Below are positions 1 through 10,472 of a stretch of DNA of 64,000 nt, one piece after another. The DNA comes from a virus (Duplodnaviria; Caudoviricetes). The notes under the pieces were generated by a model, which was not told the origin of the DNA, ran no database searches, and saw only the letters and a program-made list of their open reading frames with translations. Made by a program: the position numbers and the translations under genes. Location: positions 1 to 64,000 of the IMG/VR virus record IMGVR_UViG_3300037507_003370. One strand, written 5' to 3'. Every line of letters begins with the position of its first letter. Position 1 is the stretch's first letter.

Positions 1-22
1 GTCTTACAGAATAAGGACTTAG
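1..22. repeat. 80-bp element, partial (last palindrome; truncated by window edge)
   Basis: GTCTTA-CAGAA-TAAGGACTTAG abutting the tRNA-Asp 3' end. Confidence 0.75.
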
Positions 23-96
23 CGAGAATGACGGGACTCGAACCCGCAACCTCTAGCGTGACAGGCTAGCGATCTAACCGATTGATCTACATTCCC
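23..96 (-). tRNA. tRNA-Asp(GTC)
   Basis: Full cloverleaf on minus strand: GGGAATG/CATTCTC acceptor, CTAGC-CT GTC AC-GCTAG anticodon arm, TTCGAGT T-loop; no encoded CCA. Confidence 0.95.
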
Positions 97-99
97 AAA

Positions 100-171
100 T
101 AGCCCCAAGAGGAATCGAACCTCTAACCAGTGCTTAGAAGGCACTTGTTATATCCATTTAACTATGGGGCC
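100..171 (-). tRNA. tRNA-Arg(TCT)
   Basis: Cloverleaf: GGCCCCA/TGGGGCT acceptor, AGTGC-CT TCT AA-GCACT, TTCGATT T-loop. Confidence 0.95.
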
Positions 172-179
172 ATATGCCT

Positions 180-207
180 ATTATACTGTATCCACTCAAT
201 GCCGCAA
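180..207 (-). promoter_or_regulatory. sigma70-type promoter for tRNA-Arg/Asp
   Basis: TTGCGG-16-TATAAT ending 9 nt before tRNA-Arg. Confidence 0.6.
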
Positions 208-260
208 GCCCCCACGGTTTCCCGTGGAGGCTGAAGCGGTTTGATGATAGAATCAGTCGA

Positions 261-512
261 TCAAGCCTCGACCGTTTCCTTGACCTTCTTAGGATTCGCG
301 GAGTCGCCCGCAGCCTCGGCAGTCACACCCGTAACACGGGCACGCCACACCTTATAACCCTGCTCAGAAAAACTCTTGATCTCACCGGCCTTTACGTTCG
401 CATGAACGTCGCCGGGAAGATTCTCATTCAGTGCATCAGTCAGGCTCGCCACGACCGAATCACGATCCAGTTCATCGGCAACAACATCAACAGTAAAAGC
501 AAACTTCTTCAT
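261..512 (-). CDS. Hypothetical protein (83 aa from MKKF)
   Basis: ORF with GGAG RBS downstream of promoters. Confidence 0.75.
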   Translation of the reverse strand: MKKFAFTVDVVADELDRDSVVASLTDALNENLPGDVHANVKAGEIKSFSEQGYKVWRARVTGVTAEAAGDSANPKKVKETVEA

Positions 513-553
513 TGTAATCATCTCCAAAAAGTGTAATCGAACCAAGTAAAGTA

Positions 554-582
554 ATCATACCAACCGTATCATCACTTGTCAA
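554..582 (-). promoter_or_regulatory. sigma70-type promoter
   Basis: TTGACA-17-TATGAT. Confidence 0.65.
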
Positions 583-640
583 GGGCTAGGTCGAACTTTT
601 TTGGTTGCGATCAACCAGCGTCTTGTCTTGTGATGCTATC

Positions 641-668
641 AGTATAGCATAGTTATCGGCACTGTCAA
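641..668 (-). promoter_or_regulatory. sigma70-type promoter, class I (CGATAA in spacer)
   Basis: TTGACA-gtgCCGATAActatgc-TATACT. Confidence 0.8.
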
Positions 669-700
669 CCCCTTCTCATTAGTATTTTTCACGATTGTTC

Positions 701-780
701 CTAAGTCGTTATGGGATAAGAGTTTACGTCGAATCGCCGCGGCCGTCCTCGCCGCAAAGTCTTATGCGGCAAGGCTTTAG
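701..780. repeat. 80-bp double-palindrome element
   Basis: CTAAGTCGTTA-N5-TAAGAGTTTAC / 26 bp / GCAAAGTCTTA-N5-CAAGGCTTTAG. Confidence 0.9.
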
Positions 781-782
781 GC

Positions 783-1166
783 TCAGGAGAGAAAACCCTC
801 ACAACCCTTGTCCACAAGGTCACGCAGCAGATTTTCAGCCGCTTCGGGAGTCTTGAGAGTTACGCTGTTCTTCGTGCCTGGAGTTGCAGGAACGAACGTG
901 TCGTACTTCCAGCCACCAACCAGAGCATCACTCCAATCCTTGGCTTCCTTCAAGCCCCATCCGGTGTGAGTTCGGATAGCCTTGATGCAGTAGATACGAT
1001 TATCCAGAGTCATGCCACCAGTGATGGTAACGGTGCGATTCTGGCTCACGCCCAACGCAATCTCCACAGAGTTCACGATCTTGTGATACAGTTCAGCATC
1101 GTTGTTGTATGCCCAGTTGCTAGCCAAATACATAGCCTCACGAACAGTCAGTTGCAGATTAATCAT
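783..1166 (-). CDS. Ribosomal protein bL12 (L7/L12) C-terminal-domain-like protein
   Basis: IYCIKAIRTHTGWGLKEAKD resembles the L12 CTD motif KIxVIKxVRxxTGLGLKEAKD; C-terminal PEAAENLLRDLVDKGCE matches the last helix. Confidence 0.65.
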   Translation of the reverse strand: MINLQLTVREAMYLASNWAYNNDAELYHKIVNSVEIALGVSQNRTVTITGGMTLDNRIYCIKAIRTHTGWGLKEAKDWSDALVGGWKYDTFVPATPGTKNSVTLKTPEAAENLLRDLVDKGCEGFLS

Positions 1167-1645
1167 ACCTTAAAATCTCCTAAATACTTGGAATCTATTT
1201 CTCTAAGATCGTCGAACGAGCAGTGTCGTTCTTCTAAAATATAAACTTGTTTACCACTAGTAATGAGTGTAGCGTATTCGCTTTCATCCCATATGAACTC
1301 ATTGCTATCGCTCTCACGACGCCAGTATGGATCACGAAGTGGATTATAAAACACACGCTCAAGATTGTCAATAGGCAACGTAGGATAAAAATCCTTGCGA
1401 AGCATAACTTCCTCACACTTTACCCATCCGCTCACATCATGCACACCAGCCTCAAATACTTGTTTGGCTTTATTTGGTCGATTGCGAAGTTTACAACCCC
1501 TCATTTCCAACTGGTATTCTTTGGGATCGTAATAATATACATCAACAGTCTTACTACCTTGCTTAACTTTAATCTGCCAGTGCATAAAATGTTCGCCACT
1601 GGAAAGATGAAAACGAACTTCACCGTGCATTGGTCGTGATTTCAT
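1163..1645 (-). CDS. Hypothetical phage protein
   Basis: 160-aa ORF overlapping neighbours in the operon. Confidence 0.75.
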   Translation of the reverse strand: MKSRPMHGEVRFHLSSGEHFMHWQIKVKQGSKTVDVYYYDPKEYQLEMRGCKLRNRPNKAKQVFEAGVHDVSGWVKCEEVMLRKDFYPTLPIDNLERVFYNPLRDPYWRRESDSNEFIWDESEYATLITSGKQVYILEERHCSFDDLREIDSKYLGDFKV

Positions 1646-1877
1646 ATGGAATATTCCCTAATAAAATGTCAAAACATTGTTGACAAATCATACTATCCAA
1701 CATTCTGTGCTGGCTTGGATTAAGATATGTAAAAGCCTCTTCGGACTCTTTACCATTAATCCATACTTCAATATCATTATCCTCAACCCAAATATCTTGA
1801 TGATTACCGCATATTCTACAATCAACGGGAATACAATGCTTTCCCCCCTTTAAATAATCATTTCTATCCCAATCCAT
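1620..1877 (-). CDS. Small Zn-binding phage protein (paralog of 3103..3363)
   Basis: CxxC pairs; W-x2-G...AFTYLNPSQHRML similar to WLNG...CFPHLNAEQREIL. Confidence 0.7.
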   Translation of the reverse strand: MDWDRNDYLKGGKHCIPVDCRICGNHQDIWVEDNDIEVWINGKESEEAFTYLNPSQHRMLDSMICQQCFDILLGNIPYEITTNAR

Positions 1878-1895
1878 GATTGATCTCCTCAAACG

Positions 1896-1924
1896 ATTAT
1901 ATACTATTAACCAAGTCTTGTCAA
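1896..1924 (-). promoter_or_regulatory. sigma70-type promoter
   Basis: TTGACA-17-TATAAT, perfect consensus. Confidence 0.8.
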
Positions 1925-1938
1925 GACCTTTAAACTTT

Positions 1939-2066
1939 CGCTGACTACAGCCACCCCAGCCAAATCCGTAGGATTAGGAAAGACAAGCGTTGGGTTGAGC
2001 CATACTCGACCGCCATTTAACCGTGGCTTCTTTGATATCATTCTGCCAACGGCCCACCCACTTGTT
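1939..2066 (-). ncRNA. Candidate structured ncRNA (~130 nt)
   Basis: Directly after a strong promoter (2073-2101), no credible ORF; nested stems ACAAG/CTTGT, TGGGT/ACCCA, GGGC/GCTC, CGT(T)GGC/GCCACG plus 3' AATCC-TAC-GGATT hairpin. Confidence 0.5.
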
Positions 2067-2072
2067 TCCCTA

Positions 2073-2101
2073 AGTATACTTCTATTATCGGTCAGTGTCA
2101 A
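2073..2101 (-). promoter_or_regulatory. sigma70-type promoter, class I
   Basis: TTGACA-ctgaCCGATAAtagaag-TATACT. Confidence 0.8.
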
Positions 2102-2119
2102 GGGTTTTCTTTAAAAATC

Positions 2120-2199
2120 CTAAGTGGTTGATAGATAAGAGTTTACGTCAAATCCGGCCGCCCCGGGTTGCTCTAAAGTCTTACGCTTCAATACTTTAG
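2120..2199. repeat. 80-bp double-palindrome element
   Basis: CTAAGTGGTTG-N5-TAAGAGTTTAC / 26 bp / CTAAAGTCTTA-N5-CAATACTTTAG. Confidence 0.9.
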
Positions 2200-2310
2200 A
2201 TACCACCAATAGCAATCACCACAGAAACTCCAAAAAACCTCATGCTTATCTAGCATATAGCACATTTCATTACAGTTACCACAATAGCAAACATTATCAA
2301 GAGTTTTCAT
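2188..2310 (-). CDS. 40-aa Cys-rich (Zn-finger-like) protein
   Basis: MKTLDNVCYCGNCNEMC...FCGDCYWW; stop lies inside the 80-bp element; below the ORF-track cutoff. Confidence 0.55.
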   Translation of the reverse strand: MKTLDNVCYCGNCNEMCYMLDKHEVFWSFCGDCYWWYLKY

Positions 2311-2470
2311 AAACTAACTCCACATACTTGTTGACCAGTTCGCTGGTACCAATCTCATGCAATCCAATCAACTCTTTGGCCTTATCTACGTTATGCTTAT
2401 TTACAGCGGCCATTCTATTCTTGAAAAAACTAAGAATATAAATCATAGCCTTTGTACGATCTTCATTCAT
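2297..2470 (-). CDS. 57-aa hypothetical protein
   Basis: ATGA-coupled to the upstream ORF. Confidence 0.6.
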   Translation of the reverse strand: MNEDRTKAMIYILSFFKNRMAAVNKHNVDKAKELIGLHEIGTSELVNKYVELVYENS

Positions 2471-2721
2471 GATGGATAATCCTTTGGGTAATCGTTTTCT
2501 GGTCGTTTTGGTTTTGGCTGTCCCTCATATGGCATCCACCACGGAGCATCCATACGATCTACTATACCGGGACTTTCTTCACAAATCAAGATATGTTCAC
2601 TTACCGGATCATCCTTATGAATCTCATACCTTCCCTGCCACACCCCAATATACTCGCCAAAGTAATAAACCTTTTGGCCGTTGATGGGGCGACGAGGACC
2701 AAAAAAACTAATCCATTCCAT
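2467..2721 (-). CDS. DUF551-like small phage protein
   Basis: N-terminal MEWIS..RP and C-terminal WWMP motifs. Confidence 0.55.
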   Translation of the reverse strand: MEWISFFGPRRPINGQKVYYFGEYIGVWQGRYEIHKDDPVSEHILICEESPGIVDRMDAPWWMPYEGQPKPKRPENDYPKDYPS

Positions 2722-2882
2722 TACTCACCCCCATAACTACGATATATCTCGTAGCATTTTTCGATAGTCTCATCAGACTCATCATCATTTTTTACAGAGA
2801 TACCATTCTCATACTTATGAAACAGTTCGCTAAAAAGTCCGTAAAGTTTTCTTTCCTGTTGTCTACACTTTTCAATATTCAT
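2721..2882 (-). CDS. Hypothetical protein (likely start MNIEK)
   Basis: Tightly coupled ORF in operon. Confidence 0.55.
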   Translation of the reverse strand: MNIEKCRQQERKLYGLFSELFHKYENGISVKNDDESDETIEKCYEIYRSYGGE

Positions 2883-3106
2883 TATTTTCCCCTCGTAATA
2901 ATCAAACACATTGTACCAGTATCACTATCGGTATATCTCACAGTCTCATGAGGCCCGTAATACCAAGCATCATTCTTGGAGAAGTTGAATACAACCTCAT
3001 CGGTCTTGAGTTGAGTATCATTATACCCACCCTCATACCCAAGAGTCAATACCCTCATATCACCGGGATAACCCTTCAACTGCTCAATCAGTTCATTAAC
3101 GGTCAT
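2882..3106 (-). CDS. Small phage protein (MTVxELIEQL type)
   Basis: Typical N-terminus; ATGA coupling. Confidence 0.7.
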   Translation of the reverse strand: MTVNELIEQLKGYPGDMRVLTLGYEGGYNDTQLKTDEVVFNFSKNDAWYYGPHETVRYTDSDTGTMCLIITRGK

Positions 3107-3363
3107 TCTTCATTCTCCGGAGGAAACATATTGTTCCAAGATTCATCATCGTTACCGCTCAACAGAATCTCACGCTGTTCAGCATTAAGATGAGGAAAGC
3201 ACTGTTGAAGATAACCACCATTAAGCCACTCGTTAGCAGCACTCAGTTTAACAGTGATACTAAACGGCTTAGCACTCATGGTGTAACCTGAAAAAGTAAG
3301 ATTCTCACCATCAACCGTTCGGGTCACCTTATCACTCAGACAATACCGCTCAAAGCCAATCAT
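3103..3363 (-). CDS. Hypothetical phage protein (paralog of 1620..1877)
   Basis: First gene after promoter 3385-3413; GGAG RBS. Confidence 0.75.
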   Translation of the reverse strand: MIGFERYCLSDKVTRTVDGENLTFSGYTMSAKPFSITVKLSAANEWLNGGYLQQCFPHLNAEQREILLSGNDDESWNNMFPPENEE

Positions 3364-3384
3364 AGTTTTTCTCCTTGTTCTACC

Positions 3385-3413
3385 ATTCTACACTAGTATT
3401 ATCGGCTTGTCAA
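3385..3413 (-). promoter_or_regulatory. sigma70-type promoter, class I
   Basis: TTGACA-agCCGATAAtactagtg-TAGAAT. Confidence 0.8.
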
Positions 3414-3433
3414 TAGGCTTTTCTTTAGCAATC

Positions 3434-3513
3434 CTAAGTTGTTGGTGGGTAAGACTTTGCGACGAATCCGGCCGCGGCAGTTTGCCCTAAACTCTTACAG
3501 CGTAAGCATTTAG
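3434..3513. repeat. 80-bp double-palindrome element
   Basis: CTAAGTTGTTG-N5-TAAGACTTTGC / 26 bp / CTAAACTCTTA-N5-TAAGCATTTAG. Confidence 0.9.
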
Positions 3514-3561
3514 AGCGAACCCCTTTTGAATATGGTATACCGGCTGTTAATGGATCGACTT

Positions 3562-3637
3562 AGTGGATAGATGGATTCGAACCATCAACTCCTCTTGTAT
3601 TTAAACAAGTGGAACTCTACCTTTGAGTTATACCCAC
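3562..3637 (-). tRNA. tRNA-like gene with aberrant 22-nt anticodon arm (isotype undetermined / pseudo-tRNA)
   Basis: Acceptor GTGGGTA/TATCCAC, D-arm ACTC-AAAGGTA-GAGT and T-arm GATGG-TTCGAAT-CCATC are canonical; anticodon arm CCACTTGTTTAAATACAAGAGG is 5 nt too long. Confidence 0.65.
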
Positions 3638-3892
3638 CGATAGTTTTACGATAAGTGTCCGGTATCACGCACCTATCAACCCGATACCTTGCGGGTATCT
3701 AGGTTTCTATCCGACCCCTGTTTGTTACCAGCGAACCTTTTACGCCCCGATTCTTATCCTCATCAGTATGGAGCGACCATACCGATTTGGAACCGCCCAC
3801 GCTCACTTTCGTCCAGTTGCGAACTGGCTCAGGCAAGAGGTAACGGCTACTGGTTGTATTGCTCGTGGTGAGGATGCCATCCCACATAGATT
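3638..3892 (-). ncRNA. Candidate structured ncRNA (~250 nt) upstream of the tRNA-like gene
   Basis: Follows promoter 3899-3926; multiple hairpins (CCAGTT/AACTGG, TATGG/CCATA, GATACC/GGTATC, GATAGGTG/CACTTATC). Confidence 0.45.
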
Positions 3893-3898
3893 AGCACT

Positions 3899-3926
3899 AC
3901 TATACAGCGTATAAGCCCGCTGTCAA
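3899..3926 (-). promoter_or_regulatory. sigma70-type promoter
   Basis: TTGACA-16-TATAGT. Confidence 0.65.
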
Positions 3927-4024
3927 CCCCACGCTGCATAACAGCCGTAGGTTTATCGTAATGGCTTATCCTAATCTAGTCCCGTCGCATGGACCCACGG
4001 ATGTTTGTTTTGTCTTATAGGCTC

Positions 4025-4052
4025 ATTCTATCATCTATTATCGACCTGTCAA
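4025..4052 (-). promoter_or_regulatory. sigma70-type promoter, class I
   Basis: TTGACA-ggTCGATAAtagatga-TAGAAT. Confidence 0.75.
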
Positions 4053-4063
4053 TACCCTGTTCT

Positions 4064-4258
4064 TTAGATTTTTTGTCTTCGTCGGATTTCATCAGAGCAA
4101 TAGCAGATTTCATCAGCATAGTAGCCATAGTTCGGCTGGTCAGGCCATGCTTTCAAAACTTCCCTACAATCTTTAATGGTAAAAAGAAGTTCAGAATAAG
4201 TCATCTTCTTAACCTTTTTAGCGTAAGCCGCATGATCCATAAACTTAGTGGCAAACAT
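4064..4258 (-). CDS. Hypothetical protein
   Basis: Own promoter and GGAG RBS. Confidence 0.75.
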   Translation of the reverse strand: MFATKFMDHAAYAKKVKKMTYSELLFTIKDCREVLKAWPDQPNYGYYADEICYCSDEIRRRQKI

Positions 4259-4278
4259 CTTTTGTCTCCTGTGCCATG

Positions 4279-4307
4279 ATTCTACACTCCTATTATCGGT
4301 CTGTCAA
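4279..4307 (-). promoter_or_regulatory. sigma70-type promoter, class I
   Basis: TTGACA-gaCCGATAAtaggagtg-TAGAAT. Confidence 0.8.
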
Positions 4308-4337
4308 GAGCATATTCTGTAGAAAAAACTTTTTGAT

Positions 4338-4417
4338 GCAAGTCTATAGATGATAAGAGTTTACGTCAAAACCGGGCGGGCAGCTTTGTTGTAAAGTCTT
4401 ACGCCGCAACAGTTTGC
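4338..4417. repeat. 80-bp double-palindrome element
   Basis: GCAAGTCTATA-N5-TAAGAGTTTAC / 26 bp / GTAAAGTCTTA-N5-CAACAGTTTGC. Confidence 0.9.
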
Positions 4418-4875
4418 ATTCGCTCATATACAGTATGAATAATATCCTGATTATCCCTATAGAATGCTCGTGTTTTAATACAAGACTTAATCTGATCCTT
4501 GGGATACTTCTGGATATACTCCCAAGCATCTTTCACATGTTCATTTGACCACAATCGCCCAATCAAATCCTCAGCCTTAACGGTAAAGGCAACGTCAACA
4601 TATCCCTGCTTATTGATCACAATGAACAGAAACCGAATTTGCTTCTCCCTCTCGCTCAATCCATAATACTTACTAGGATCAAGCCACTGTAAATCGGCCT
4701 GCTTCTTACACTCCACAAGACAATCCAACATATCATTTTTATAATCATACAACGTATGGCTAGTCCGCTCCCAACCATTATCCCTAGAAAGAATACGAGA
4801 CAATACATTCTCCTTGCCCCCGTACCCCTTAAGATTCACAATAGACAGCAATTGCTTTTGCGTAGTGGTAAGCAT
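4399..4875 (-). CDS. Hypothetical protein, possible PD-(D/E)xK nuclease fold
   Basis: YDY...LVECKK motif; stop inside the 80-bp element. Confidence 0.6.
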   Translation of the reverse strand: MLTTTQKQLLSIVNLKGYGGKENVLSRILSRDNGWERTSHTLYDYKNDMLDCLVECKKQADLQWLDPSKYYGLSEREKQIRFLFIVINKQGYVDVAFTVKAEDLIGRLWSNEHVKDAWEYIQKYPKDQIKSCIKTRAFYRDNQDIIHTVYERMQTVAA

Positions 4876-4884
4876 AGCGATGGT

Positions 4885-4912
4885 ATCTTACTGCTTAATC
4901 TTGTTTTGTCAA
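4885..4912 (-). promoter_or_regulatory. sigma70-type promoter (near-leaderless mRNA)
   Basis: TTGACA-16-TAAGAT, ATG of 4399..4875 only 9 nt after the -10 box. Confidence 0.6.
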
Positions 4913-4972
4913 GAGTTTTCGCTGACTATACCCACTCAACCCAAATCCGTAGGATTACCTGATACAAGCCAA

Positions 4973-5044
4973 TGACCCCACAGGGAATCGAACCCTGATT
5001 CTCGGAGCGAAAATCCGATTTCCTAACCGTTAGAAGATGGGGCC
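4973..5044 (-). tRNA. tRNA-Glu(TTC)
   Basis: Cloverleaf: GGCCCCA/TGGGGTC, TCGGA-TT TTC GC-TCCGA, TTCGATT T-loop. Confidence 0.93.
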
Positions 5045-5051
5045 AAGATAT

Positions 5052-5207
5052 TTACCAGACTACCTTTTCAATCCTCAGATCACTACCATACTTATCTTTA
5101 GCCTTTCTCCAAGCATCATACTGACTAAATGATACAACATAGCCAACGAATCGGCCATGTTGAAACACTCTCCACGACATTCCGGCAAGACATTGAGCAG
5201 TGGTCAT
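5052..5207 (-). CDS. Hypothetical protein (51 aa from MTTAQ)
   Basis: AAAGGAG RBS, promoter 5226-5253. Confidence 0.7.
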   Translation of the reverse strand: MTTAQCLAGMSWRVFQHGRFVGYVVSFSQYDAWRKAKDKYGSDLRIEKVVW

Positions 5208-5225
5208 ATGAATCTCCTTTGCCCG

Positions 5226-5253
5226 ATTATACACATTATCGGGTGTTTGTCAA
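5226..5253 (-). promoter_or_regulatory. sigma70-type promoter, class I
   Basis: TTGACA-aacaCCCGATAAtgtg-TATAAT. Confidence 0.8.
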
Positions 5254-5271
5254 TACAACTTTAGATTTTCC

Positions 5272-5351
5272 ACAAGTCTTTGATCAATAAGAGTTTGCAT
5301 CAACATCGGCCGCACCGGCTCGCACTAAAGTCTTGTGGCTAAAGACCTTAG
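5272..5351. repeat. 80-bp double-palindrome element
   Basis: ACAAGTCTTTG-N5-TAAGAGTTTGC / 26 bp / CTAAAGTCTTG-N5-AAAGACCTTAG. Confidence 0.9.
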
Positions 5352-5366
5352 AGCGAGTCTGCTTTT

Positions 5367-5777
5367 TCAGCAGAAAAGGTGGGCCAGACCAGCCTTGAAG
5401 ATAGTACCTCCAAGGAGGGGGCGACGACAGTTTACAACTCGTTCAGCATAGAAGTTGCGAACAGTACCATCAGCACTACGACCCGTAATAAGATGGCGAG
5501 TACGCTGGAAGTTACTATCGTTTCGTCGGTAGTTGCTTTTAGCATTCAGTCTACGAATCTGATTATCGTCCAACATAGTCACGCCAAGTACCTTTACAAG
5601 AAAACGCTCAGGATCACCCTTTGCGGGCTGGAGATATTCAAAGTTGAAAACATCGCCAACCTTTGCGGTTGACAGACTACCATGAGTACCACTGTATATA
5701 TGATACAGAGAGAATGCCAGAAGGCAGGCCATAGCACCAATCACACAACCGCCGTAAACCAAAATATCGTTCGTCAT
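5367..5777 (-). CDS. Protein with N-terminal TM segment and WYL/SH3-like domain
   Basis: Hydrophobic residues 5-27; FNFEYLQP...ER...VRNFYAERV pattern reminiscent of WYL. Confidence 0.5.
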   Translation of the reverse strand: MTNDILVYGGCVIGAMACLLAFSLYHIYSGTHGSLSTAKVGDVFNFEYLQPAKGDPERFLVKVLGVTMLDDNQIRRLNAKSNYRRNDSNFQRTRHLITGRSADGTVRNFYAERVVNCRRPLLGGTIFKAGLAHLFC

Positions 5778-5816
5778 TTAGAACCCTTTCGTTGTGAGAA
5801 ATCCATCATTTCACCC

Positions 5817-5845
5817 ATTCTACAGTATATTATCGGCATTGTCAA
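5817..5845 (-). promoter_or_regulatory. sigma70-type promoter, class I
   Basis: TTGACA-atgCCGATAAtatactg-TAGAAT. Confidence 0.8.
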
Positions 5846-5875
5846 GCGGTCTTCTTGAGAAAATCTTTTCTTGCT

Positions 5876-5955
5876 ATAAGTTGTTGAAACACAAGACTTT
5901 GCAGAAAAACCGGCCGACCAGCCTTGGCGTAAACTTTTACGCAGCAAGGCTTTAC
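5876..5955. repeat. 80-bp double-palindrome element
   Basis: ATAAGTTGTTG-N5-CAAGACTTTGC / 26 bp / GTAAACTTTTA-N5-CAAGGCTTTAC. Confidence 0.9.
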
Positions 5956-5957
5956 AC

Positions 5958-6227
5958 TCACTCAAAATCTACGAAGATAATCTGATTGTATCCTCGCGGC
6001 TTCACGGTATAACCATCACCATAGTCGTAGGTATCGGCCTTTACCGCAGTCATATTCGCCAGAGACTTAGCCTGTCGAATAACGCTACGCTGAGACTCAG
6101 CATTACGAGGCTGAAACTCATACCGCTTCACCCAACCATAGTTAGCCTCACCGCCAAACGTATCAGTAACCGTCACAACACACTTCGTCATTTTCACTGT
6201 CTCCTTTGGTTTTATCTTATCACACAA
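5958..6227 (-). CDS. Hypothetical protein
   Basis: ORF ending 2 nt from the element; likely start MTKC at 6191. Confidence 0.7.
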   Translation of the reverse strand: MCDKIKPKETVKMTKCVVTVTDTFGGEANYGWVKRYEFQPRNAESQRSVIRQAKSLANMTAVKADTYDYGDGYTVKPRGYNQIIFVDFE

Positions 6228-6237
6228 TCAAACGTTG

Positions 6238-6525
6238 TCAAGCATACGGATTCAAGATATCAGCAGCCCAATCCTCAATACGGTTACCAGCAGCACCACG
6301 GCTACTGTCTTTCCTGATAGATATCTTGCGAACATCATCCGCAAAAAACGTACCACATTCTCCCATGCTACAGTTGTCGAGGGTAACAATAAGAAACTCG
6401 TTACCATTGTCGATAACAGCATGAGACATGGTGCCAAGAGCATCAGCAGCAGCGAGTCTCATTTCCTGAAGGGTAATCATGTTATTTCCAGTTGTTACGG
6501 CGACATTCCTCAGCCCATTCAGCAT
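6238..6525 (-). CDS. Hypothetical protein (likely start MLNG)
   Basis: ORF in operon. Confidence 0.6.
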   Translation of the reverse strand: MLNGLRNVAVTTGNNMITLQEMRLAAADALGTMSHAVIDNGNEFLIVTLDNCSMGECGTFFADDVRKISIRKDSSRGAAGNRIEDWAADILNPYA

Positions 6526-6691
6526 CTTCACGACGAGTACGATCATTGTACCCATAACCACCATTAGTCAAGTAGTTATCTTTCACAGCATCATAGCCAT
6601 CGTCACTATCCACAAACGGCTCGCAATGTTCCTTGCAACGCGAGCAAATATCACCACGATAGATCGTCACACCACAGCAGTCACTCAACAT
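6482..6691 (-). CDS. Small Zn-ribbon protein
   Basis: SDCCG...ICSRCKEHC; first gene after promoter 6724-6752. Confidence 0.7.
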   Translation of the reverse strand: MLSDCCGVTIYRGDICSRCKEHCEPFVDSDDGYDAVKDNYLTNGGYGYNDRTRREDAEWAEECRRNNWK

Positions 6692-6723
6692 TTTTCACTC
6701 TCTTTCTTACTCTTTATATCGGT

Positions 6724-6752
6724 ATTCTACCAGCCTAAACTTTAGAAGTCAA
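6724..6752 (-). promoter_or_regulatory. sigma70-type promoter, class II (TCTAAAG after -35, CGATA after -10)
   Basis: TTGACT-TCTAAAGtttaggctgg-TAGAAT-aCCGATATAA. Confidence 0.75.
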
Positions 6753-6771
6753 GCATATTTTTTTGAAAATC

Positions 6772-6851
6772 GTAAGTTGTTGTGTCTCAATAGTTTGCGT
6801 CAAATGCGTCCGCTGGGCCTTGGCGTAAACTCTTACGCATCAAGGCTTTAG
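6772..6851. repeat. 80-bp double-palindrome element
   Basis: GTAAGTTGTTG-N5-CAATAGTTTGC / 26 bp / GTAAACTCTTA-N5-CAAGGCTTTAG. Confidence 0.9.
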
Positions 6852-6852
6852 A

Positions 6853-7271
6853 TCACTTGGCCTTAGAGTCGTTCATTTTCTTTAAAACTTCAACAATCAT
6901 AGGAATACCATAGAACATTTTTTAGTCTCCTAGTAGTTTACCACCCACGCCGCGATACATCCGAAGACAAACGCAATAGATAAAACAATAGCATCCCCAT
7001 CTTTCATACCTAATCCTTTTTTACAGTAGGAAAAACCAGGTCACAAACAAACCAAGAACACACAAGGCCAGCAATAAATCCAGCACCGAAACTATTCCAG
7101 TCTAAATATATATCGGCCATCCATGGCTCCTTACTTAAGTAATAAAAAACAAAGATATAAATAAACCAAAAAGAAACATAGTAGCAATAACTAGCGACAT
7201 TCTTCTATGATCCAACAAAGAAAAGTATTTAGTAAAATAACACCATATAAACCCGCGAGATATAAAATCAT
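6853..7271 (-). CDS. Run of five coupled micro-ORFs (21-36 aa), mostly single-TM peptides
   Basis: 7191..7271, ~7135..7200, 7010..7120, 6930..7007, 6853..6918; overlapping start/stop and GGAG RBSs. Confidence 0.55.
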
Positions 7272-7579
7272 CCTCCCACCACCATTCCTTCCATAAAAGG
7301 ATATTCCTTACCATTCAGTTTCACGAACCACTCATACTTGTGCTGGTACACACGAACGGGGCTATACTGGTTGATTCTATCCTTGGTGGTACTGGTTTGC
7401 CAACCCCCAGTCTGGAGGGTATAGGTATTGTCAGCATGAATCTTTACCACATAGGTGCTGTGGAGCAAAATACCAACCGATCCACACGGCAGGATTTCAG
7501 CGTAGGTGTTGTTTCCCACCTTGCGGCTGTCCTTATTCCGCTTGCCACGAACCATAGAAACTGCTTCAGCGTGAGTCAT
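7268..7579 (-). CDS. Phage hypothetical protein (GWxTxTTKxRIN type)
   Basis: Own promoter and RBS; motif common in phage early proteins. Confidence 0.75.
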   Translation of the reverse strand: MTHAEAVSMVRGKRNKDSRKVGNNTYAEILPCGSVGILLHSTYVVKIHADNTYTLQTGGWQTSTTKDRINQYSPVRVYQHKYEWFVKLNGKEYPFMEGMVVGG

Positions 7580-7606
7580 GTTCTTTTCCTTCTGGGTGAT
7601 GTTCTA

Positions 7607-7634
7607 AGTATACTCTACTTATCGGCTTTGTCAA
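7607..7634 (-). promoter_or_regulatory. sigma70-type promoter, class I
   Basis: TTGACA-aagCCGATAAgtagag-TATACT. Confidence 0.8.
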
Positions 7635-7750
7635 CCGCGATTCTTAAAATATTCGCGGATTCTTTTTTCGTCTCGTCGATTCTCAAAAAAGGTTACGATT
7701 TCGATATACATCATATAACCGAAAATCGCCAAAAATACCAGTCCAAACAT
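7631..7750 (-). CDS. 39-aa membrane peptide
   Basis: MFGLVFLAIFGYMMYIEIVTFF + basic tail; behind promoter 7777-7805; TGA overlaps next -35. Confidence 0.6.
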   Translation of the reverse strand: MFGLVFLAIFGYMMYIEIVTFFENRRDEKRIREYFKNRG

Positions 7751-7776
7751 TTGTTTTCCTTTTCCTTTGTATCGAC

Positions 7777-7805
7777 ATTATACAGGAAGAAACTTTAGAA
7801 GTCAA
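7777..7805 (-). promoter_or_regulatory. sigma70-type promoter, class II
   Basis: TTGACT-TCTAAAGtttcttcctg-TATAAT-gTCGATA. Confidence 0.75.
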
Positions 7806-7833
7806 CAACAAAATAAAAGATTCTAGAGTTGCT

Positions 7834-7913
7834 TTAAGTCGTTGAGCCTAAAGAGTTTACGTCAAGATCGTGCGGCCCGATTCGTCGTAAAGTCTTATGC
7901 AACAAGTAGTTAG
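7834..7913. repeat. 80-bp double-palindrome element
   Basis: TTAAGTCGTTG-N5-AAAGAGTTTAC / 26 bp / GTAAAGTCTTA-N5-CAAGTAGTTAG. Confidence 0.9.
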
Positions 7914-7972
7914 ATTCTTATAATATTGGTGTATAAACCATAGTCTACATTTCCATACCGGAGACGAGTACT

Positions 7973-8371
7973 ATGGCAAAATATGATCCACAAGAATATC
8001 AGCGAAATAAAGAGTCTTACAAGATTAGAAACCAAAGATACAAGAGCAAACATAGGTCTATGGTGAACCAAAAACAATCGGAATATAGATCAAAAACAAA
8101 AGATAAAATCAATCAGTATTCTAAAAGTCGTAGAAATAAAATAAGGATTCTATATGATGAATACATGAAAGATAAATCTTGCTTACATTGTGGATATGAT
8201 GATTCTCGCTCTCTCGTATGGCATCATACCGACCCATCACAAAAGAAAAATGGAGTTATTCAGTTGGTTGGTAAAAAACACGGGTGGGATACTATCATGA
8301 CAGAAATAAACAAATGTATATGCTTATGCCATAATTGTCATAATATATTACATAATCACCAGTCACCATAG
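7973..8371 (+). CDS. HNH endonuclease
   Basis: CLHCG...LVWHHTD...EINKCICLCHNCHNILH; antisense to surrounding genes. Confidence 0.85.
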   Translation: MAKYDPQEYQRNKESYKIRNQRYKSKHRSMVNQKQSEYRSKTKDKINQYSKSRRNKIRILYDEYMKDKSCLHCGYDDSRSLVWHHTDPSQKKNGVIQLVGKKHGWDTIMTEINKCICLCHNCHNILHNHQSP

Positions 8372-8625
8372 TCATCCATTGAAGGATTATAGTATTCATC
8401 TTCGGCCCAGCCTACTGACCCCATAGCGCTGTCGTGATCTCCATCCATGCTGTCATCATAGTGATCAGAGTAATCGTCATCGTGATCAGCATCGGCATGA
8501 TAGGCCGAACTATCTTCGCCATAGAAAGCGTCATGGTAATCATATTGATAATCGTCAAAGTGACTGCTCATGTCATCATCCTCATAAGAGTTATCGGGAT
8601 CGAACAAAGGATCAGGGTGACTCAT
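8356..8625 (-). CDS. Extremely acidic protein (no Lys/Arg)
   Basis: Asp-rich; SMDGDHDSAMxSxGWxEDEY motif. Confidence 0.75.
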   Translation of the reverse strand: MSHPDPLFDPDNSYEDDDMSSHFDDYQYDYHDAFYGEDSSAYHADADHDDDYSDHYDDSMDGDHDSAMGSVGWAEDEYYNPSMDDYGDW

Positions 8626-8692
8626 AACTAATCCTTACAAAGAACACAAAAACACAATCCAATATATGCCACGATAAAAAGAAGAGCGTTCA

Positions 8693-8878
8693 TTAGTATA
8701 TATTTGCCCAAAATGGTTCATTCGGAGTCAACTCGTCAACAATACCCACAATATCTGCCCAATCCCAGTAGTTGATCTCCATATTGGGATCATCAATCGG
8801 CTCGACCATAGGCTCGACGATACCCCGCTCGGCAAGGTCGGCCAGAACACCATTCACTTCGTCGAAGTCGTTCAGCAT
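8693..8878 (-). CDS. Acidic hypothetical protein (from MLNDF)
   Basis: GGAGAG RBS, promoter 8918-8945. Confidence 0.7.
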   Translation of the reverse strand: MLNDFDEVNGVLADLAERGIVEPMVEPIDDPNMEINYWDWADIVGIVDELTPNEPFWANIY

Positions 8879-8917
8879 CTTATGCTCTCCGTTGGTGGTC
8901 GCGATCATCATGCCACG

Positions 8918-8945
8918 ATTATACATACATTATCGGCCAATGCAA
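8918..8945 (-). promoter_or_regulatory. sigma70-type promoter, class I
   Basis: TTGCAT-tggCCGATAAtgtatg-TATAAT. Confidence 0.7.
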
Positions 8946-8987
8946 GGGGTAATCGTGAATATTTTTCCTTACAATACTGTAAGGTTC

Positions 8988-9040
8988 GCAAGTACTTATC
9001 GCACAATCTTTTATGAAAAATCGGGCCCCTCCATTTTACG
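8988..9040. repeat. 80-bp element, half copy
   Basis: GCAAGTACTTA-N5-CAATCTTTTAT plus GC-cored spacer; second palindrome degenerate. Confidence 0.6.
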
Positions 9041-9120
9041 TTTTGCCTACATTTACGCTGACTATAGCCCACCTTGCCAACCCTGTAGGTTGTGGTGATA
9101 CAAAATAAGCCCTGACTTAC

Positions 9121-9420
9121 TCAAGCCGGTTGTAGCGAATCGTTCTGGATTGCTGCATCCATCACCTTACCCGCCTTGAACCTGACCACGTTGTGAGCGG
9201 ACACCATCACACTCTCACCCGTTCGAGGATTGCGAGCGTTGCGAGGGGCGACCCTCTTGACTACGAACACACCGAAGTTGCGAAGTTCGATGCGACCAGT
9301 GGTAGAGAGCGTTTCGATCATGTTGTCTAGTGTGGCTTGCACGATCTCACGAGCCTGCTCGCCCGTCACACCCACCCGCTCCGCAATCCGCTCAATCATT
9401 TCACGCTTCGTACTGCTCAT
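9121..9420 (-). CDS. HU/IHF family DNA-bending protein
   Basis: TKREMIERIAE...IELRNFGVF...RNARNPRTGE...VRFKAGK. Confidence 0.93.
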   Translation of the reverse strand: MSSTKREMIERIAERVGVTGEQAREIVQATLDNMIETLSTTGRIELRNFGVFVVKRVAPRNARNPRTGESVMVSAHNVVRFKAGKVMDAAIQNDSLQPA

Positions 9421-9446
9421 CTGTTTCTCTCCGTTATGATACCTTG

Positions 9447-9474
9447 ATTATACTACATATTATCGTCATGTCAA
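9447..9474 (-). promoter_or_regulatory. sigma70-type promoter, class I (HU/IHF gene)
   Basis: TTGACA-tgACGATAAtatgtag-TATAAT. Confidence 0.8.
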
Positions 9475-9564
9475 TAAGAAAATCTTTGAGAAAAATAAAA
9501 ATAATCTTGTGCCAAAATATTTTATTTTCTTAAACAGAAGATCGTATCGATCAGCATATTAGTC

Positions 9565-9644
9565 GTAAGTATATATGCCATAACGCTTTAGATCAAACTG
9601 GGTCCGCCCGCATTTTTCTAAATGATTAGATGTCAAGATTTTGT
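9565..9644. repeat. 80-bp double-palindrome element
   Basis: GTAAGTATATA-N5-TAACGCTTTAG / 26 bp / CTAAATGATTA-N5-CAAGATTTTGT. Confidence 0.85.
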
Positions 9645-9677
9645 ATCATCAAATCTTTGAGCACTAGTGTACGGATG

Positions 9678-10070
9678 TCACCCCTCCGAGAAGGGGGAGA
9701 CTTCCTCTCCACAAGCAAGAATCGCCTCATACTGTGCGGCCAATGCGGCCTTACGTTCAGCCGAACCTGGCTTGCCAACCTTTACGATCATAAGATCGTC
9801 ACCCCCCTTATAGCGGGGATCGGCTTTTTCAGCCTTGATACTACCAGCATTACGCAACGCCTTGCGATTGAACTTCAAAACCTTCTCGCTACGGATCGGG
9901 CCATATACCCCATCAGCGAGTGATGGTTGGTGAGGGATTGCGATTCCAAGAAAGCACATGCGAACCTGACGCTTGGCATCTTCGATAATCTTGAACTTGG
10001 TAGCCATTTTCTTTTTCTCTCTTGGTTGGTGATACTGGAATGATTCTAGGAAACTTTTCTCGCCTTGCAT
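9678..10070 (-). CDS. Hypothetical basic protein
   Basis: 130-aa ORF; alternative start MATK. Confidence 0.65.
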   Translation of the reverse strand: MQGEKSFLESFQYHQPREKKKMATKFKIIEDAKRQVRMCFLGIAIPHQPSLADGVYGPIRSEKVLKFNRKALRNAGSIKAEKADPRYKGGDDLMIVKVGKPGSAERKAALAAQYEAILACGEEVSPFSEG

Positions 10071-10077
10071 ACCCCCC

Positions 10078-10221
10078 TTATGGGCGAGAGTTCATGAACC
10101 TTTCGGCATTGTAAGAAGTTTTGAAGGTTGCCAGAAGCCTACGGGAATATCCGTTGGGATACTTGGTTTCCCTATAAACCTTATACTTACCCTTTACGAC
10201 GATTAGAACCAGCGTTTCCAT
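10078..10221 (-). CDS. 47-aa mini-protein, paralog family A
   Basis: KYKVYR...RRLLATFKTSYNAERFMN. Confidence 0.7.
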   Translation of the reverse strand: METLVLIVVKGKYKVYRETKYPNGYSRRLLATFKTSYNAERFMNSRP

Positions 10222-10254
10222 TTTCACTCTCTCTTTCTTATACCTATATATAGA

Positions 10255-10269
10255 GCAATCGGTGTGCCA
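10255..10269 (-). promoter_or_regulatory. sigma54-type -24/-12 motif
   Basis: TGGCACACCGATTGC vs consensus TGGCACG-N4-TTGC. Confidence 0.6.
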
Positions 10270-10417: not shown

Positions 10418-10472
10418 AACGGATTACCCATCTTACCATGCCTCTTTTTTAGGCTTAAAATTTTTTATTCCG

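What the first reader, a model, noticed from the sequence alone, without database searches (positions are those of the whole stretch)
3638..3892. ~250-nt hairpin-rich RNA co-transcribed with an aberrant tRNA
Seen: its own promoter (3899-3926), then stems GGAT/ATCC, CCAGTT/AACTGG, GAGCG/CGCTC or TATGG/CCATA, GATACC/GGTATC (GCAA loop) and GATAGGTG/CACTTATC, long-range ACCAG/CTGGT or GTTACC/GGTAAC, and isolated CUGAUGAG and GAAA segments. The overlapping 62-aa ORF looks incidental. Known: large structured ncRNAs next to tRNAs occur in phages (GOLLD and ROOL classes). I cannot assign this one to a family.
Basis: partly seen in the sequence, partly recalled or inferred. Interest (0 to 1): 0.6.

Follow-up and report, generated by a model that had tools for sequence, protein, structure and literature searches.

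The report
New folded RNA family in lake phages
The early region of an uncultured lake phage encodes a conserved, folded, non-coding RNA from a family missing from the RNA catalogue, and it sits in a string of other folded RNAs and tRNA look-alikes; what it does is unknown.

Summary
It covers parts of three units of a non-coding early cassette (about 4052 to 3540, minus strand).

The central unit (3854-3727, 128 nt) belongs to a structured RNA family with no Rfam 15 match. I found 94 distinct versions in lake-phage and freshwater metagenome contigs, and one copy in each of five complete 159-233 kb relatives.

The fold has:
- a closing helix P1
- a long arm P2-P3 whose inner part is swapped between subtypes
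- an optional hairpin P4
- a 5-bp hairpin P5 with a near-invariant loop GGGGCGUAAAA

Of the 25 core pairs, 12 show compensatory changes, and 97% of cells are paired against 27-49% when partners are slid.

The 62-aa ORF is not conserved. CUGAUGAG is not conserved either, so this is not a hammerhead.

Downstream neighbours vary, so a cis-regulatory role is unlikely. Lake RNA-library contigs cover the two flanking units but not the core.

Function is unknown. My best guess is a processed, trans-acting RNA.

The parts
4025..4052 (-). Sigma-70-type promoter of the non-coding cassette (TTGACA, 16 nt, TAGAAT, with TG before the -10). It is followed by a leader that ends in ...AAGACAAAACAAAC.
   Evidence: 11 of 12 letters. 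Several relatives have the same layout of promoter, then GAGTAAGACAAAACAAAC, then the tRNA-like unit.
3861..4002 (-). Module 1: a tRNA-like RNA of about 140 nt. It has a 5-bp closing stem (CGUGG/CCACG), a D-arm-like hairpin, a long arm UAGAUUAG/CUAAUCUA with an insert, and a T-arm-like hairpin. The finding's first 32 bases (3892-3861) are its 3' end.
   Evidence: Conserved in L007, L005, L002 and many others. RNA-library contigs cover 3890-4012, 3863-3975 and 3854-3971. ARAGORN does not call it a tRNA.
3899..3926 (-). Its spacer is a hairpin of module 1 (ACAGCG/CGCUGU, about 3921-3901).
   Evidence: for the site. On 17 relatives, 5 of 6 hairpin pairs change on both sides and 82% of cells are paired, against 28-42% when partners are slid. 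L012, L048 and L073 have no -35/-10 here.
3854..3860 (-). Linker AAUACAA between module 1 and the core RNA. Its last A (3854) is also the first base of P1.
   Evidence: AATACAA precedes 29 of 45 distinct members, and close variants precede most of the rest. The same linker separates other RNA units in relatives.
3727..3854 (-). The core family ('CCAG RNA'), 128 nt here:
- P1 3854-3849/3732-3727
- P2 3848-3843/3796-3791
- P3 3827-3822/3818-3813
- P4 3786-3777/3771-3762
- P5 3753-3749/3737-3733
   Evidence: Covariance model R1 scores 92.5 bits, E = 6e-25, on the window. Coordinates were checked pair by pair.
3738..3748 (-). Loop of P5, GGGGCGUAAAA, nearly invariant across the family. Its first and last bases vary as G.A, G-C or G.U.
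   Evidence: Variants GGAUCGUAAAA, UGGGCGUAAAU and ...AAAC/...AAAU appear. Note that two of the search patterns fixed part of this loop.
3796..3801 (-). Conserved CGUGGR segment. It runs into the 3' strand of P2 (its last base is the first of that strand) and is kept in all subtypes, although its proposed partner (CCA) is not.
3762..3786 (-). P4, a 10-bp hairpin (AUCGGUAUGG, loop UCGCU, CCAUACUGAU). This arm is optional in the family: 5 nt replace it in several members.
   Evidence: In the commonest P4 class all 5 stem pairs change on both sides, and 91% of cells are paired against 22-48% when slid.
3720..3726 (-). Linker AACAAAC between the core RNA and module 3.
   Evidence: The same ACAAAC precedes module 1 at 4008-4003. 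It also occurs in L007, L010 and L052.
3639..3719 (-). Module 3: a three-way junction closed by GAUAG/CUAUC (3711-3707/3643-3639) with two hairpins. The second hairpin has the conserved loop CGUGAUACCGGA, and the unit ends ...CGUAAAACUAUC.
   Evidence: Present after the core RNA in only 4 of 45 members. Absent in L004 and L005, where the cassette boundary follows directly. The stems differ in letters in L007 and L010. An RNA-library contig spans exactly 3542-3714.
3561..3638 (-). tRNA-like gene with normal acceptor, D and T arms but a long anticodon arm that has no standard loop. It is followed by the conserved trailer ...AAGUCGAUCCAUUAACAGCC, which runs to 3542.
   Evidence: ARAGORN calls it 'tRNA-???'. 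Rfam tRNA scores 45.7 bits with 16 nt where the model has 11. L010 has CUCA-GAGA-UGAG in that arm, a different stem with a 4-nt loop.

Best explanation
The finding lies inside a non-coding early cassette of a large uncultured lake phage. A sigma-70 promoter at 4052-4025 drives a transcript that carries several separately folded RNA units in a row:
1. a tRNA-like unit (4002-3861)
2. the linker AAUACAA
3. a 128-nt RNA of a previously uncatalogued family (3854-3727)
4. the linker AACAAAC
5. a third folded unit (3719-3639)
6. an anticodon-less tRNA mimic (3638-3561)

The 128-nt RNA is the conserved heart of the finding. Its helix P1 closes a junction that carries three arms. One is a long arm (P2-P3) whose distal part is exchanged between subtypes. 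One is an optional hairpin (P4). One is a short hairpin (P5) that abuts P1 with no spacer and has a near-invariant 11-nt loop.

Shown: it is a structured, non-coding RNA family confined, as far as I searched, to lake-phage and freshwater metagenome contigs. There is one copy per complete genome, and the gene behind it is not fixed.

Inferred: the units are cut apart, helped by host tRNA-end-forming enzymes acting on the tRNA-like neighbours. The freed RNA then acts in trans early in infection, most likely by binding a host or phage protein through its invariant junction and loop, as a decoy or cofactor.
For: Family and fold:
- Three DNA patterns and a covariance model gave 63 true matches in IMG/VR loci and 66 in metagenome loci.
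- On 94 distinct sequences, 97.2% of cells are paired and 12 of 25 pairs change on both sides. No shuffle of 500 reaches any measure, and slid controls give 27-49% paired.
- P2 occurs as AACCG/CGGUU, CUGCC/GGCAG and GUUGC/GCAAC. P5 occurs as GAAUC/GAUUC, GGAUC/GAUCC, GAACC/GGUUC and GAGUC/GACUC.
- All 5 pairs of P4 covary. The two basal pairs of P3 have the highest mutual information in the alignment.

Not coding: a sense frame is open in only 9 of 45 members, and lengths run from 95 to 182 nt in all three classes modulo 3. The ATG of the 62-aa ORF is missing in L004 and L034.

Not tied to a gene (45 members):
- 14 are followed by the next promoter
- 10 by a ribosome-binding site and ATG; the proteins behind them belong to several families
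- 6 by the cassette boundary
- 8 by other RNA units
- 7 by something else

Multi-unit transcript: the same promoter-leader-module 1 layout recurs in relatives, with units separated by AAUACAA or ACAAAC.

Expression hints: lake RNA-library contigs cover 3542-3714 and 3854-4012. One contig bridges module 1, the linker and another unit. One has a sequencing adapter abutting 3863, about where a tRNA 3' end would be formed.

Copy number: one copy in each of five records rated 100% complete.
Against: - No RNA-library contig was laid on the core itself (3727-3853), so its expression and ends are not shown. Contigs cannot prove transcription, and DNA may be present in those libraries.
- P1 shows no compensatory change. 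Its 3' strand was fixed by two of the search patterns, so P1 rests on conservation, three wobble changes and position.
- The 94-sequence alignment was fitted to the model, which favours the structure. The plain MAFFT alignment gives a weaker but same-signed result.
- The window's own minimum-energy fold differs from the comparative fold.
- No binding partner is known. The five complete relatives have no Ro (TROVE) or CCA-adding gene, and only one has RtcB.
- The internal promoter-like site 3926-3899 is at consensus level in 6 of 17 relatives, so a second start there cannot be excluded.
Confidence: 0.6

Rival explanations
1. The 128-nt RNA is a self-cleaving ribozyme. It cuts at or near its own 5' edge (the AAUACAA linker) and so releases the upstream tRNA-like RNA and itself from the multi-unit transcript. 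HDV-like theta ribozymes do this behind phage tRNAs.
For: - Conserved bases sit in the junction and one loop while peripheral stems vary or are optional. This pattern is typical of small ribozymes.
- It sits 6-9 nt behind a tRNA-like 3' end in most members.
- Theta ribozymes show that phages do place ribozymes directly behind tRNAs (PMC10879173, listed; known to me mostly from memory).
- Short motifs (ACAAAC, GGGG[CU], CGUAAAA) loosely recall conserved hatchet segments (primer sequences in PMC4604424).
Against: - No ribozyme family of Rfam matches, at E up to 1 on the window and two relatives and up to 10 on three others, minimal members among them.
- P1 and P2 are nested, not the double pseudoknot of HDV-like ribozymes. 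The order of the hatchet-like motifs does not fit the hatchet topology described in PMC6561176.
- CUGAUGAG is not conserved.
- Some members start right behind a promoter with nothing upstream to release (L084 and the first copy in L094).
- The one discrete end seen lies 8-9 nt upstream of P1, not at it.
Confidence: 0.12
2. The units are not separate RNAs. They are domains of one large ornate RNA of about 460 nt (4006-3540), comparable in spirit to GOLLD or ROOL, which also lie beside tRNAs in phages. The RNA works as a whole.
For: - The units are contiguous with 7-nt linkers and no terminator between them.
- An RNA-library contig bridges two units.
- Module 1 and the core RNA co-occur in most loci.
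Against: - Units are present, absent and reordered independently. L004 and L005 lack module 3 and the tRNA mimic. L084 has the core alone behind a promoter. Other loci insert one or two different units between module 1 and the core.
- Each unit closes on its own helix.
- GOLLD and ROOL models give no match.
- No covariation between the core's well-filled columns and anything outside its helices was seen. Only columns inside the core were tested.
Confidence: 0.12
3. It is a cis-acting element: a riboswitch or leader for the gene behind it, a transcript stabiliser, or a terminator formed by P1 plus the U-run.
For: - In 10 of 45 members a ribosome-binding site and ATG follow within about 45 nt.
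- In 17 of 45 members, at least 5 of the first 8 bases after P1 are U.
- The conservation pattern resembles a ligand-binding aptamer.
Against: - In 35 of 45 members the next feature is not a gene start. It is a promoter, a cassette boundary or another RNA unit.
- The proteins found downstream belong to several unrelated small-protein families.
- In the window the RNA is followed by more non-coding RNA.
- No alternative expression-platform pairing is apparent.
Confidence: 0.1
4. The conservation acts on the DNA (a protein-binding, recombination or promoter site), or the 62-aa ORF 3699-3887 is a real gene.
For: - A consensus-like promoter overlaps the 5' part.
- The region sits in a cassette-shuffling early region, where short shared linkers could serve recombination.
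- In the four closest relatives the ORF's frame stays open across the core.
Against: - Compensatory changes keep the pairing but not the sequence, which is selection on RNA.
- The frame is broken in 36 of 45 members, and length differences fall in all classes modulo 3.
- There is no start codon in L004 or L034.
- No Shine-Dalgarno sequence precedes the ATG at 3887.
Confidence: 0.04

Closest known systems
Phage T4 RNAC and RNAD (species 1 and 2 RNAs)
   Same: They are small stable RNAs encoded next to tRNA genes of a large lytic phage, directly after tRNA-Arg (T4 annotation). RNAC ends in a T-arm and acceptor-like 3' part, much like module 1 here. Their roles are still unknown (PMC3014915; PMC9697503).
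   Different: There is no detectable homology. With filters off, model R1 finds nothing on rnaC or rnaD; its best score in that 10-kb stretch of T4 is 13.7 bits, inside a protein gene. T4 RNAC and RNAD are classed as late RNAs. The RNA here sits in an early-type region full of sigma-70 promoters, and in arrays with conserved linkers.
HDV-like theta ribozymes behind phage tRNAs (PMC10879173)
   Same: Both are structured RNAs placed a few bases behind a tRNA or tRNA-like 3' end in phage genomes, where they could form that end.
   Different: Theta ribozymes are minimal double-pseudoknotted HDV folds. This RNA has nested helices around a junction, is 95-182 nt long and matches no Rfam ribozyme model. 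Cleavage is untested.
GOLLD and ROOL large RNAs
   Same: They are ornate RNAs of unknown function, often in phages or prophages and next to tRNAs. GOLLD was first seen in lake metagenomes (from my own knowledge, not checked here).
   Different: They are several times larger. Their Rfam models give no match to the window or to six relatives. The units here shuffle independently.
tRNA-like processing signals (t-elements of plant mitochondria; mascRNA at the MALAT1 3' end)
   Same: A tRNA-shaped element inside a longer transcript recruits RNase P or RNase Z and so defines the ends of its neighbours. That is the role I infer here for module 1 and the tRNA mimic. An adapter-tagged contig end lies near the acceptor-like 3' end of module 1.
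   Different: This describes the neighbours, not the 128-nt RNA itself. It is not shown in phages by any paper I read, and only one contig end supports it here.
Candidate structured RNAs catalogued from IMG/VR (PMC10690425)
   Same: That survey predicted 8,495 candidate structured RNAs from the same viral contig collection, tRNA-like ones among them. This family may be one of them.
   Different: I could not check: no supplementary tables are held. The main-text passages I read (those on tRNA-like candidates and freshwater) do not describe this motif.

Membership tests
Hammerhead ribozyme | Conserved core CUGAUGA ... GAAA around three helices, with a cleavable NUH site | tested here: not met
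   CUGAUGAG reads CUGGUGAG in L007, L004 and L034 and is absent from most members. No hairpin fits between GAAA and CUGAUGA for a type II layout. No Rfam hammerhead match.
HDV-like / theta ribozyme | Nested double pseudoknot (P1, P1.1, P2, P3, P4) with cleavage at the 5' edge | tested here: not met
   The supported helices P1, P2 and P5 are nested and not knotted. The mutual-information scan found no extra long-range pairs. No Rfam match. Cleavage itself cannot be tested here.
Hatchet ribozyme | P1 hairpin, a 3-nt conserved linker, then P2-P3-P4 with conserved bases in the P2/P3 internal loop; cleavage 5' of P1 | tested here: not met
   No Rfam match, at E up to 10 on the three relatives and up to 1 elsewhere. 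The short motif likenesses occur in a different order and topology from the description in PMC6561176 and the Ht-1 sequence in PMC4604424.
GOLLD / ROOL | Match to the family covariance model | tested here: not met
   cmscan of the window (1-12000) and of six relatives lists only tRNAs in these regions.
tRNA | Cloverleaf with a 7-nt anticodon loop, recognised by ARAGORN or the Rfam tRNA model | tested here: not met
   The core RNA gets no tRNA call. No canonical tRNA lies in the 140 nt upstream of any of 45 members. Only the neighbour at 3561-3638 scores as tRNA-like, and its anticodon arm is aberrant.
Riboswitch / cis-regulatory leader | Constant position upstream of genes of one function, with an expression platform | tested here: not met
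   Only 10 of 45 members precede a gene start. The proteins found downstream are of several kinds.
Bacterial Y RNA (YrlA) with Ro protein | Match to the Rfam model; an rsr (TROVE-domain) gene nearby or in the genome | tested here: not met
   No Rfam match. No TROVE match in five complete relatives. A host-encoded Ro protein cannot be excluded.
T4 RNAC / RNAD | Sequence and structure homology to T4 rnaC or rnaD | tested here: not met
   Model R1 with filters off finds no match over rnaC (L086 4909-5047) or rnaD (5054-5172).
Protein-coding gene (ORF 3699-3887) | Reading frame and start codon kept in relatives; length changes in multiples of three | tested here: not met

The most novel reading that the evidence does not exclude
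These lake phages carry an 'RNA operon': an early transcript built from interchangeable folded RNA units, joined by conserved linkers and punctuated by tRNA look-alikes that recruit host tRNA-end-forming enzymes. The 128-nt RNA would then be either a new class of small ribozyme or a dedicated decoy for a host factor, such as a defence or RNA-processing protein.
Probability: 0.25. Interest if true: 0.8.

Novelty: new variant of a known kind. Interest (0 to 1): 0.62.

Why it matters
Small stable RNAs that ride with phage tRNA genes have been known since the T4 era, and none has a known function (PMC3014915).

This case offers a family with about a hundred natural variants and a well-constrained fold. 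It has an invariant junction and loop that mark the functional site, and optional arms that show what can be deleted. It also exposes a modular layout of several unrelated folded RNAs and tRNA mimics joined by fixed linkers under one early promoter.

That makes several questions directly testable:
- whether phages use tRNA-shaped punctuation to cut non-coding transcripts
- whether such RNAs are decoys, cofactors or ribozymes
- how RNA 'genes' are shuffled like the small protein genes around them

If the RNA turns out to be one more orphan motif, the value is a clean new entry for RNA family catalogues.

Tried and rejected
**Database searches that found nothing**
- Phage isolates: no DNA similarity in near or distant mode for 3300-4200.
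- Rfam: three scans gave nothing beyond tRNAs.
- Viral contigs: an exact 28-nt pattern from module 3 gave nothing. A third family pattern gave no new loci, so the IMG/VR set looks saturated at about 60 loci.
- Genome contigs: the single hit (L049, a contig of a metagenome-assembled genome labelled Planctomycetaceae) is a chance match inside what reads as an uninterrupted coding stretch and scores 13.4 bits.
- Weak model hits in L048 (21.3 bits) and L115 (25.5 bits) also lie in stretches that read as coding; I set them aside as chance.

**Ideas tested and dropped**
- Hammerhead, HDV-like, hatchet, K-turn and T-loop readings were tried by eye and do not fit.
- A pseudoknot between the P5 loop and the variable UYNCC segment after P2 was dropped: the pairing register shifts between members, and no covariation appeared.
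- A small ORF starting at the GUG behind the GGAGG of the commonest subtype was dropped: its frame and stop change with P4 length, and the window's subtype lacks GGAGG.
- A 5-bp match between the P5 loop and module 1 (CGUAA/UUACG) was dropped: short forms of module 1 lack that segment, yet the core RNA is present in the same loci.

**No result either way**
- No RNA-library contig lay on 3727-3853. This is no evidence either way.
- TROVE, CCA-adding enzyme and RtcB searches in five complete relatives gave no consistent partner.
- PHROGs showed only that the window is a tailed phage, with a terminase and tail fibres. I did not verify the 'T4-like' label of earlier notes.
- The supplement of PMC10690425 is not held, so overlap with that catalogue stays open.

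Full report
**What is at the coordinates**

On the minus strand, 3892-3638 lies in a stretch with no convincing gene. A promoter-like site sits at 3926-3899 and another at 4052-4025. An odd tRNA-like gene lies at 3638-3561; ARAGORN cannot name its anticodon, and the Rfam tRNA model scores 45.7 bits with an over-long anticodon arm.

The window is a tailed phage, with a terminase and tail fibres. Its early region on the minus strand is packed with near-consensus sigma-70 promoters. It has no DNA relative among sequenced phage isolates.

The 262-nt stretch folds somewhat better than shuffles (z = -2.0). That alone would not be convincing.

**Relatives split the finding into units**

Eight viral contigs encode a relative of the neighbouring 158-aa protein. 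One of them (L007) keeps the whole stretch 4009-3540 at 89% identity. L004 and L005 keep only the middle, and there the cassette boundary follows directly after ...ACAAACAGGGGT. They lack the two 3' hairpins and the tRNA-like gene. L005 also has a 143-nt insert just before the middle part.

So the finding covers three things:
- the 3' end of an upstream unit (3892-3861)
- a conserved core (3854-3727)
- a third unit (3719-3639), which occurs behind only 4 of 45 distinct core members

**The core is a family**

I scanned the viral contigs with three patterns taken from conserved pieces and built a covariance model from 45 distinct sequences. This gave 63 true matches in the viral loci, one per locus. 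One metagenome scan added 66 more.

Three weak matches lie in stretches that read as protein-coding and were set aside as chance. One of them is the only hit in 185,579 prokaryote genomes. Five relatives rated 100% complete (159-233 kb) have exactly one copy each. Two metagenome contigs hold two copies (L094, L121).

DNA runs that hold the window's sequence are all labelled lake water. Rfam 15 has no model that matches the window or six relatives, minimal members included.

**The fold**

Members run from 95 to 182 nt and share a scaffold:
- **P1**: ACCAGU/GCUGGU closes the RNA.
- **P2**: follows P1 without a spacer and opens a long arm. The inner part of that arm differs between at least four subtypes, and it ends in hairpin P3.
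- **CGUGGR**: a conserved segment that runs into the 3' strand of P2.
- **P4**: an optional hairpin. Five bases replace it in several members.
- **P5**: a 5-bp hairpin with the loop GGGGCGUAAAA. Its 3' strand runs straight into the 3' strand of P1.

In the window these are P1 3854-3849/3732-3727, P2 3848-3843/3796-3791, P3 3827-3822/3818-3813, P4 3786-3777/3771-3762 and P5 3753-3749/3737-3733. All 33 pairs are standard pairs.

Pair counts:
- On a plain MAFFT alignment of 45 sequences, 96.8% of cells pair, against 27-50% when partners are slid by 1-3 columns.
- On 94 distinct sequences aligned to the model, 97.2% pair and 12 of 25 pairs change on both sides. No shuffle of 500 reaches any of the five measures. 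That alignment leans towards the model, so the MAFFT result is the safer one.

Clear compensatory sets:
- P2 as AACCG/CGGUU, CUGCC/GGCAG and GUUGC/GCAAC
- P5 as GAAUC/GAUUC, GGAUC/GAUCC, GAACC/GGUUC and GAGUC/GACUC
- all five stem pairs of the commonest P4 class
- the two basal pairs of P3, for example C-G in 41 sequences against G-C in 33

P1 never shows a double change. Two of the patterns fixed its 3' strand, so it rests on conservation, on three C-to-U changes that keep a wobble pair, and on its position.

The window's own minimum-energy fold uses part of P5 to pair with P2's strand. The comparative fold is about 4 kcal/mol less stable in the energy model. The minimal member L084 folds into the comparative structure unaided.

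**Not a gene, not a hammerhead**

A sense frame is open through the core in only 9 of 45 members. Lengths fall in all three classes modulo 3. The ATG of the 62-aa ORF is missing in L004 and L034, and its ends fall in neighbouring units that are absent elsewhere.

CUGAUGAG lies in the 3' strand of P4. It reads CUGGUGAG in the closest relatives and is absent from most members.

**The 'own promoter'**

The site 3926-3899 is a good consensus match. However, its spacer is a hairpin of the upstream unit. On 17 relatives, 5 of 6 pairs of that hairpin change on both sides, and 82% of cells pair against 28-42% when slid. The unpaired cells come mostly from rows with a one-base shorter loop.

Six of the 17 relatives have consensus-level -35 and -10 boxes here, several have weak ones, and L012, L048 and L073 have none. 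RNA-library contigs run across the site.

By contrast, the layout 'TTGACA...TAGAAT, leader ...GAGTAAGACAAAACAAAC, then this unit' recurs in several relatives. In the window it corresponds to the promoter at 4052-4025. I therefore take 4052-4025 as the main promoter and cannot exclude a second start at about 3892.

**The surroundings: a string of folded RNAs**

The unit upstream (4002-3861) is tRNA-like. It has a short closing stem, a D-arm-like hairpin, a long arm with an insert, and a T-arm-like hairpin followed by an acceptor-like 3' strand. ARAGORN does not accept it as a tRNA.

In relatives, one or two further units of quite different sequence sit between it and the core. Each closes on its own stem, and each is separated by AAUACAA or a close variant. 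AATACAA precedes 29 of 45 distinct core members.

Behind the core come, in varying loci:
- the next promoter (14 of 45)
- a ribosome-binding site and ATG (10)
- the cassette boundary (6)
- other RNA units (8)
- something else (7)

The small proteins that follow, next or further on, belong to several families. This speaks against a cis-regulatory role and for an independent RNA 'gene' that is shuffled like the small protein genes around it.

**Expression**

Six lake or freshwater RNA libraries hold parts of the stretch. I laid four of them:
- One 173-nt contig equals 3542-3714, that is module 3, the tRNA mimic and its trailer.
- Contigs of three other studies cover 3890-4012, 3863-3975 and 3854-3971.
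- One contig carries a sequencing adapter directly at 3863. That is one or two bases from where a tRNA-type 3' end would be formed on module 1.
- One contig bridges module 1, the linker and a different unit found in relatives.

These are contigs, so they show presence in RNA libraries. They do not show strand, level or true ends, and none lies on the core itself.

**How it most likely works**

Shown: a non-coding, structured, single-copy RNA family of lake phages, inside a multi-unit non-coding cassette in a region dense with sigma-70-type promoters.

Inferred:
1. The cassette is transcribed from 4052-4025.
2. The tRNA-like units attract host RNase P and 3'-end-forming enzymes, which cut the transcript in the A-rich linkers.
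3. The freed 128-nt RNA works in trans. It uses the invariant junction (P1/P2/P5, CGUGGR) and the P5 loop as its functional surface, while P3 and P4 are exchangeable struts.

P5 stacks on P1 with no spacer, as a T arm does on an acceptor stem. P4 sits where a tRNA's variable arm would. So the RNA may itself be read as tRNA-shaped by some protein.

I put the ribozyme reading at about 0.12. The conservation pattern fits, but no known topology does, and some members have nothing upstream to release. I also put the single-large-RNA reading at about 0.12.

**Comparison with what is known**

The nearest analogues in kind are T4 RNAC and RNAD. They lie directly behind tRNA-Arg, and RNAC has a tRNA-like 3' part. 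Their functions are still unknown. The model finds no homology to either.

Theta ribozymes, GOLLD, ROOL and Y RNAs share the tRNA neighbourhood or the phage setting, but each fails a defining test (see the membership table).

A 2023 survey predicted thousands of candidate structured RNAs from the same viral collection. This family may be among them, but I could not check.

Earlier notes of this scan describe the same cassette type in another genome (e1-5728945) and propose tRNA-like cutting signals elsewhere in this genome (e1-5381466).

**Verdict**

This is a real, well-supported, uncatalogued structured RNA family in a new modular setting. Its function is open.

Noticed in passing
window 4002-3861 (-); L004, L012, L036 and others: Module 1 is itself a modular tRNA-like RNA family. 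Forms range from about 70 nt (L036) through about 110 nt (L012, L048, L073) to about 140-155 nt, with an optional ACGAUAAACC-plus-hairpin insert. A loose signature for it occurs in about half of all loci fetched. It looks like an uncatalogued family in its own right.
   Followed up: partly
L010, L052, L014, L027, L074, L078, L018; L032, L011, L006; L028; L034; L067: At least five further kinds of folded RNA unit occur between AAUACAA linkers in relatives. Examples are a unit UCCGGUAUUAUCC...CAGCCGGAUACC with a repeated CAUCGGGUA, and a 55-nt unit CAGAUAGGCGGAGUAACUG...GGCCUAUCU. None was analysed for covariation.
   Followed up: no
L009, L034, L005; L004 7925-8022 and L005 8158-8242: tRNA-shaped genes with normal acceptor, D and T arms but a 30-40-nt insert in the anticodon/variable region sit at the head of some arrays. 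The Rfam tRNA model scores them 28.7 bits, just under its threshold.
   Followed up: no
window 3638-3561 (-) compared with L010 and L052: The anticodon arm of the tRNA-like gene varies in stem letters and loop size: CUUGU-loop-ACAAG here, CUCA-GAGA-UGAG in L010. L052 has a form without a D arm. All are followed by the conserved trailer AAGUCGAUCCAUUAACAGCCGG. This fits a non-decoding tRNA mimic.
   Followed up: partly
window 3863 (run X17): An RNA-library contig ends at 3863 with an Illumina adapter attached after one extra base. On the RNA strand that base is C, where the window has G; many relatives read CCACGACCA here. It may mark a discrete 3' end of module 1 at its discriminator position. 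It is a single contig.
   Followed up: no
L094 4100-4560 (-): One metagenome contig has two family members in one array. A diverged 97-nt copy sits right behind the promoter, module 1 follows, and then comes a standard copy. The diverged copy carries compensatory changes in P2 and P5.
   Followed up: partly
window 3520-3434 (-) and downstream of six members: The element GGGGTTCGCTCTAAATGC...GGGCAAACTGCCG..GGCCGG follows the RNA directly in six loci. In the window, AGGGGT occurs both at 3719-3714 and at the start of this element. The block 'module 3 plus tRNA mimic' therefore looks like an insertion between two copies of that short word.
   Followed up: no
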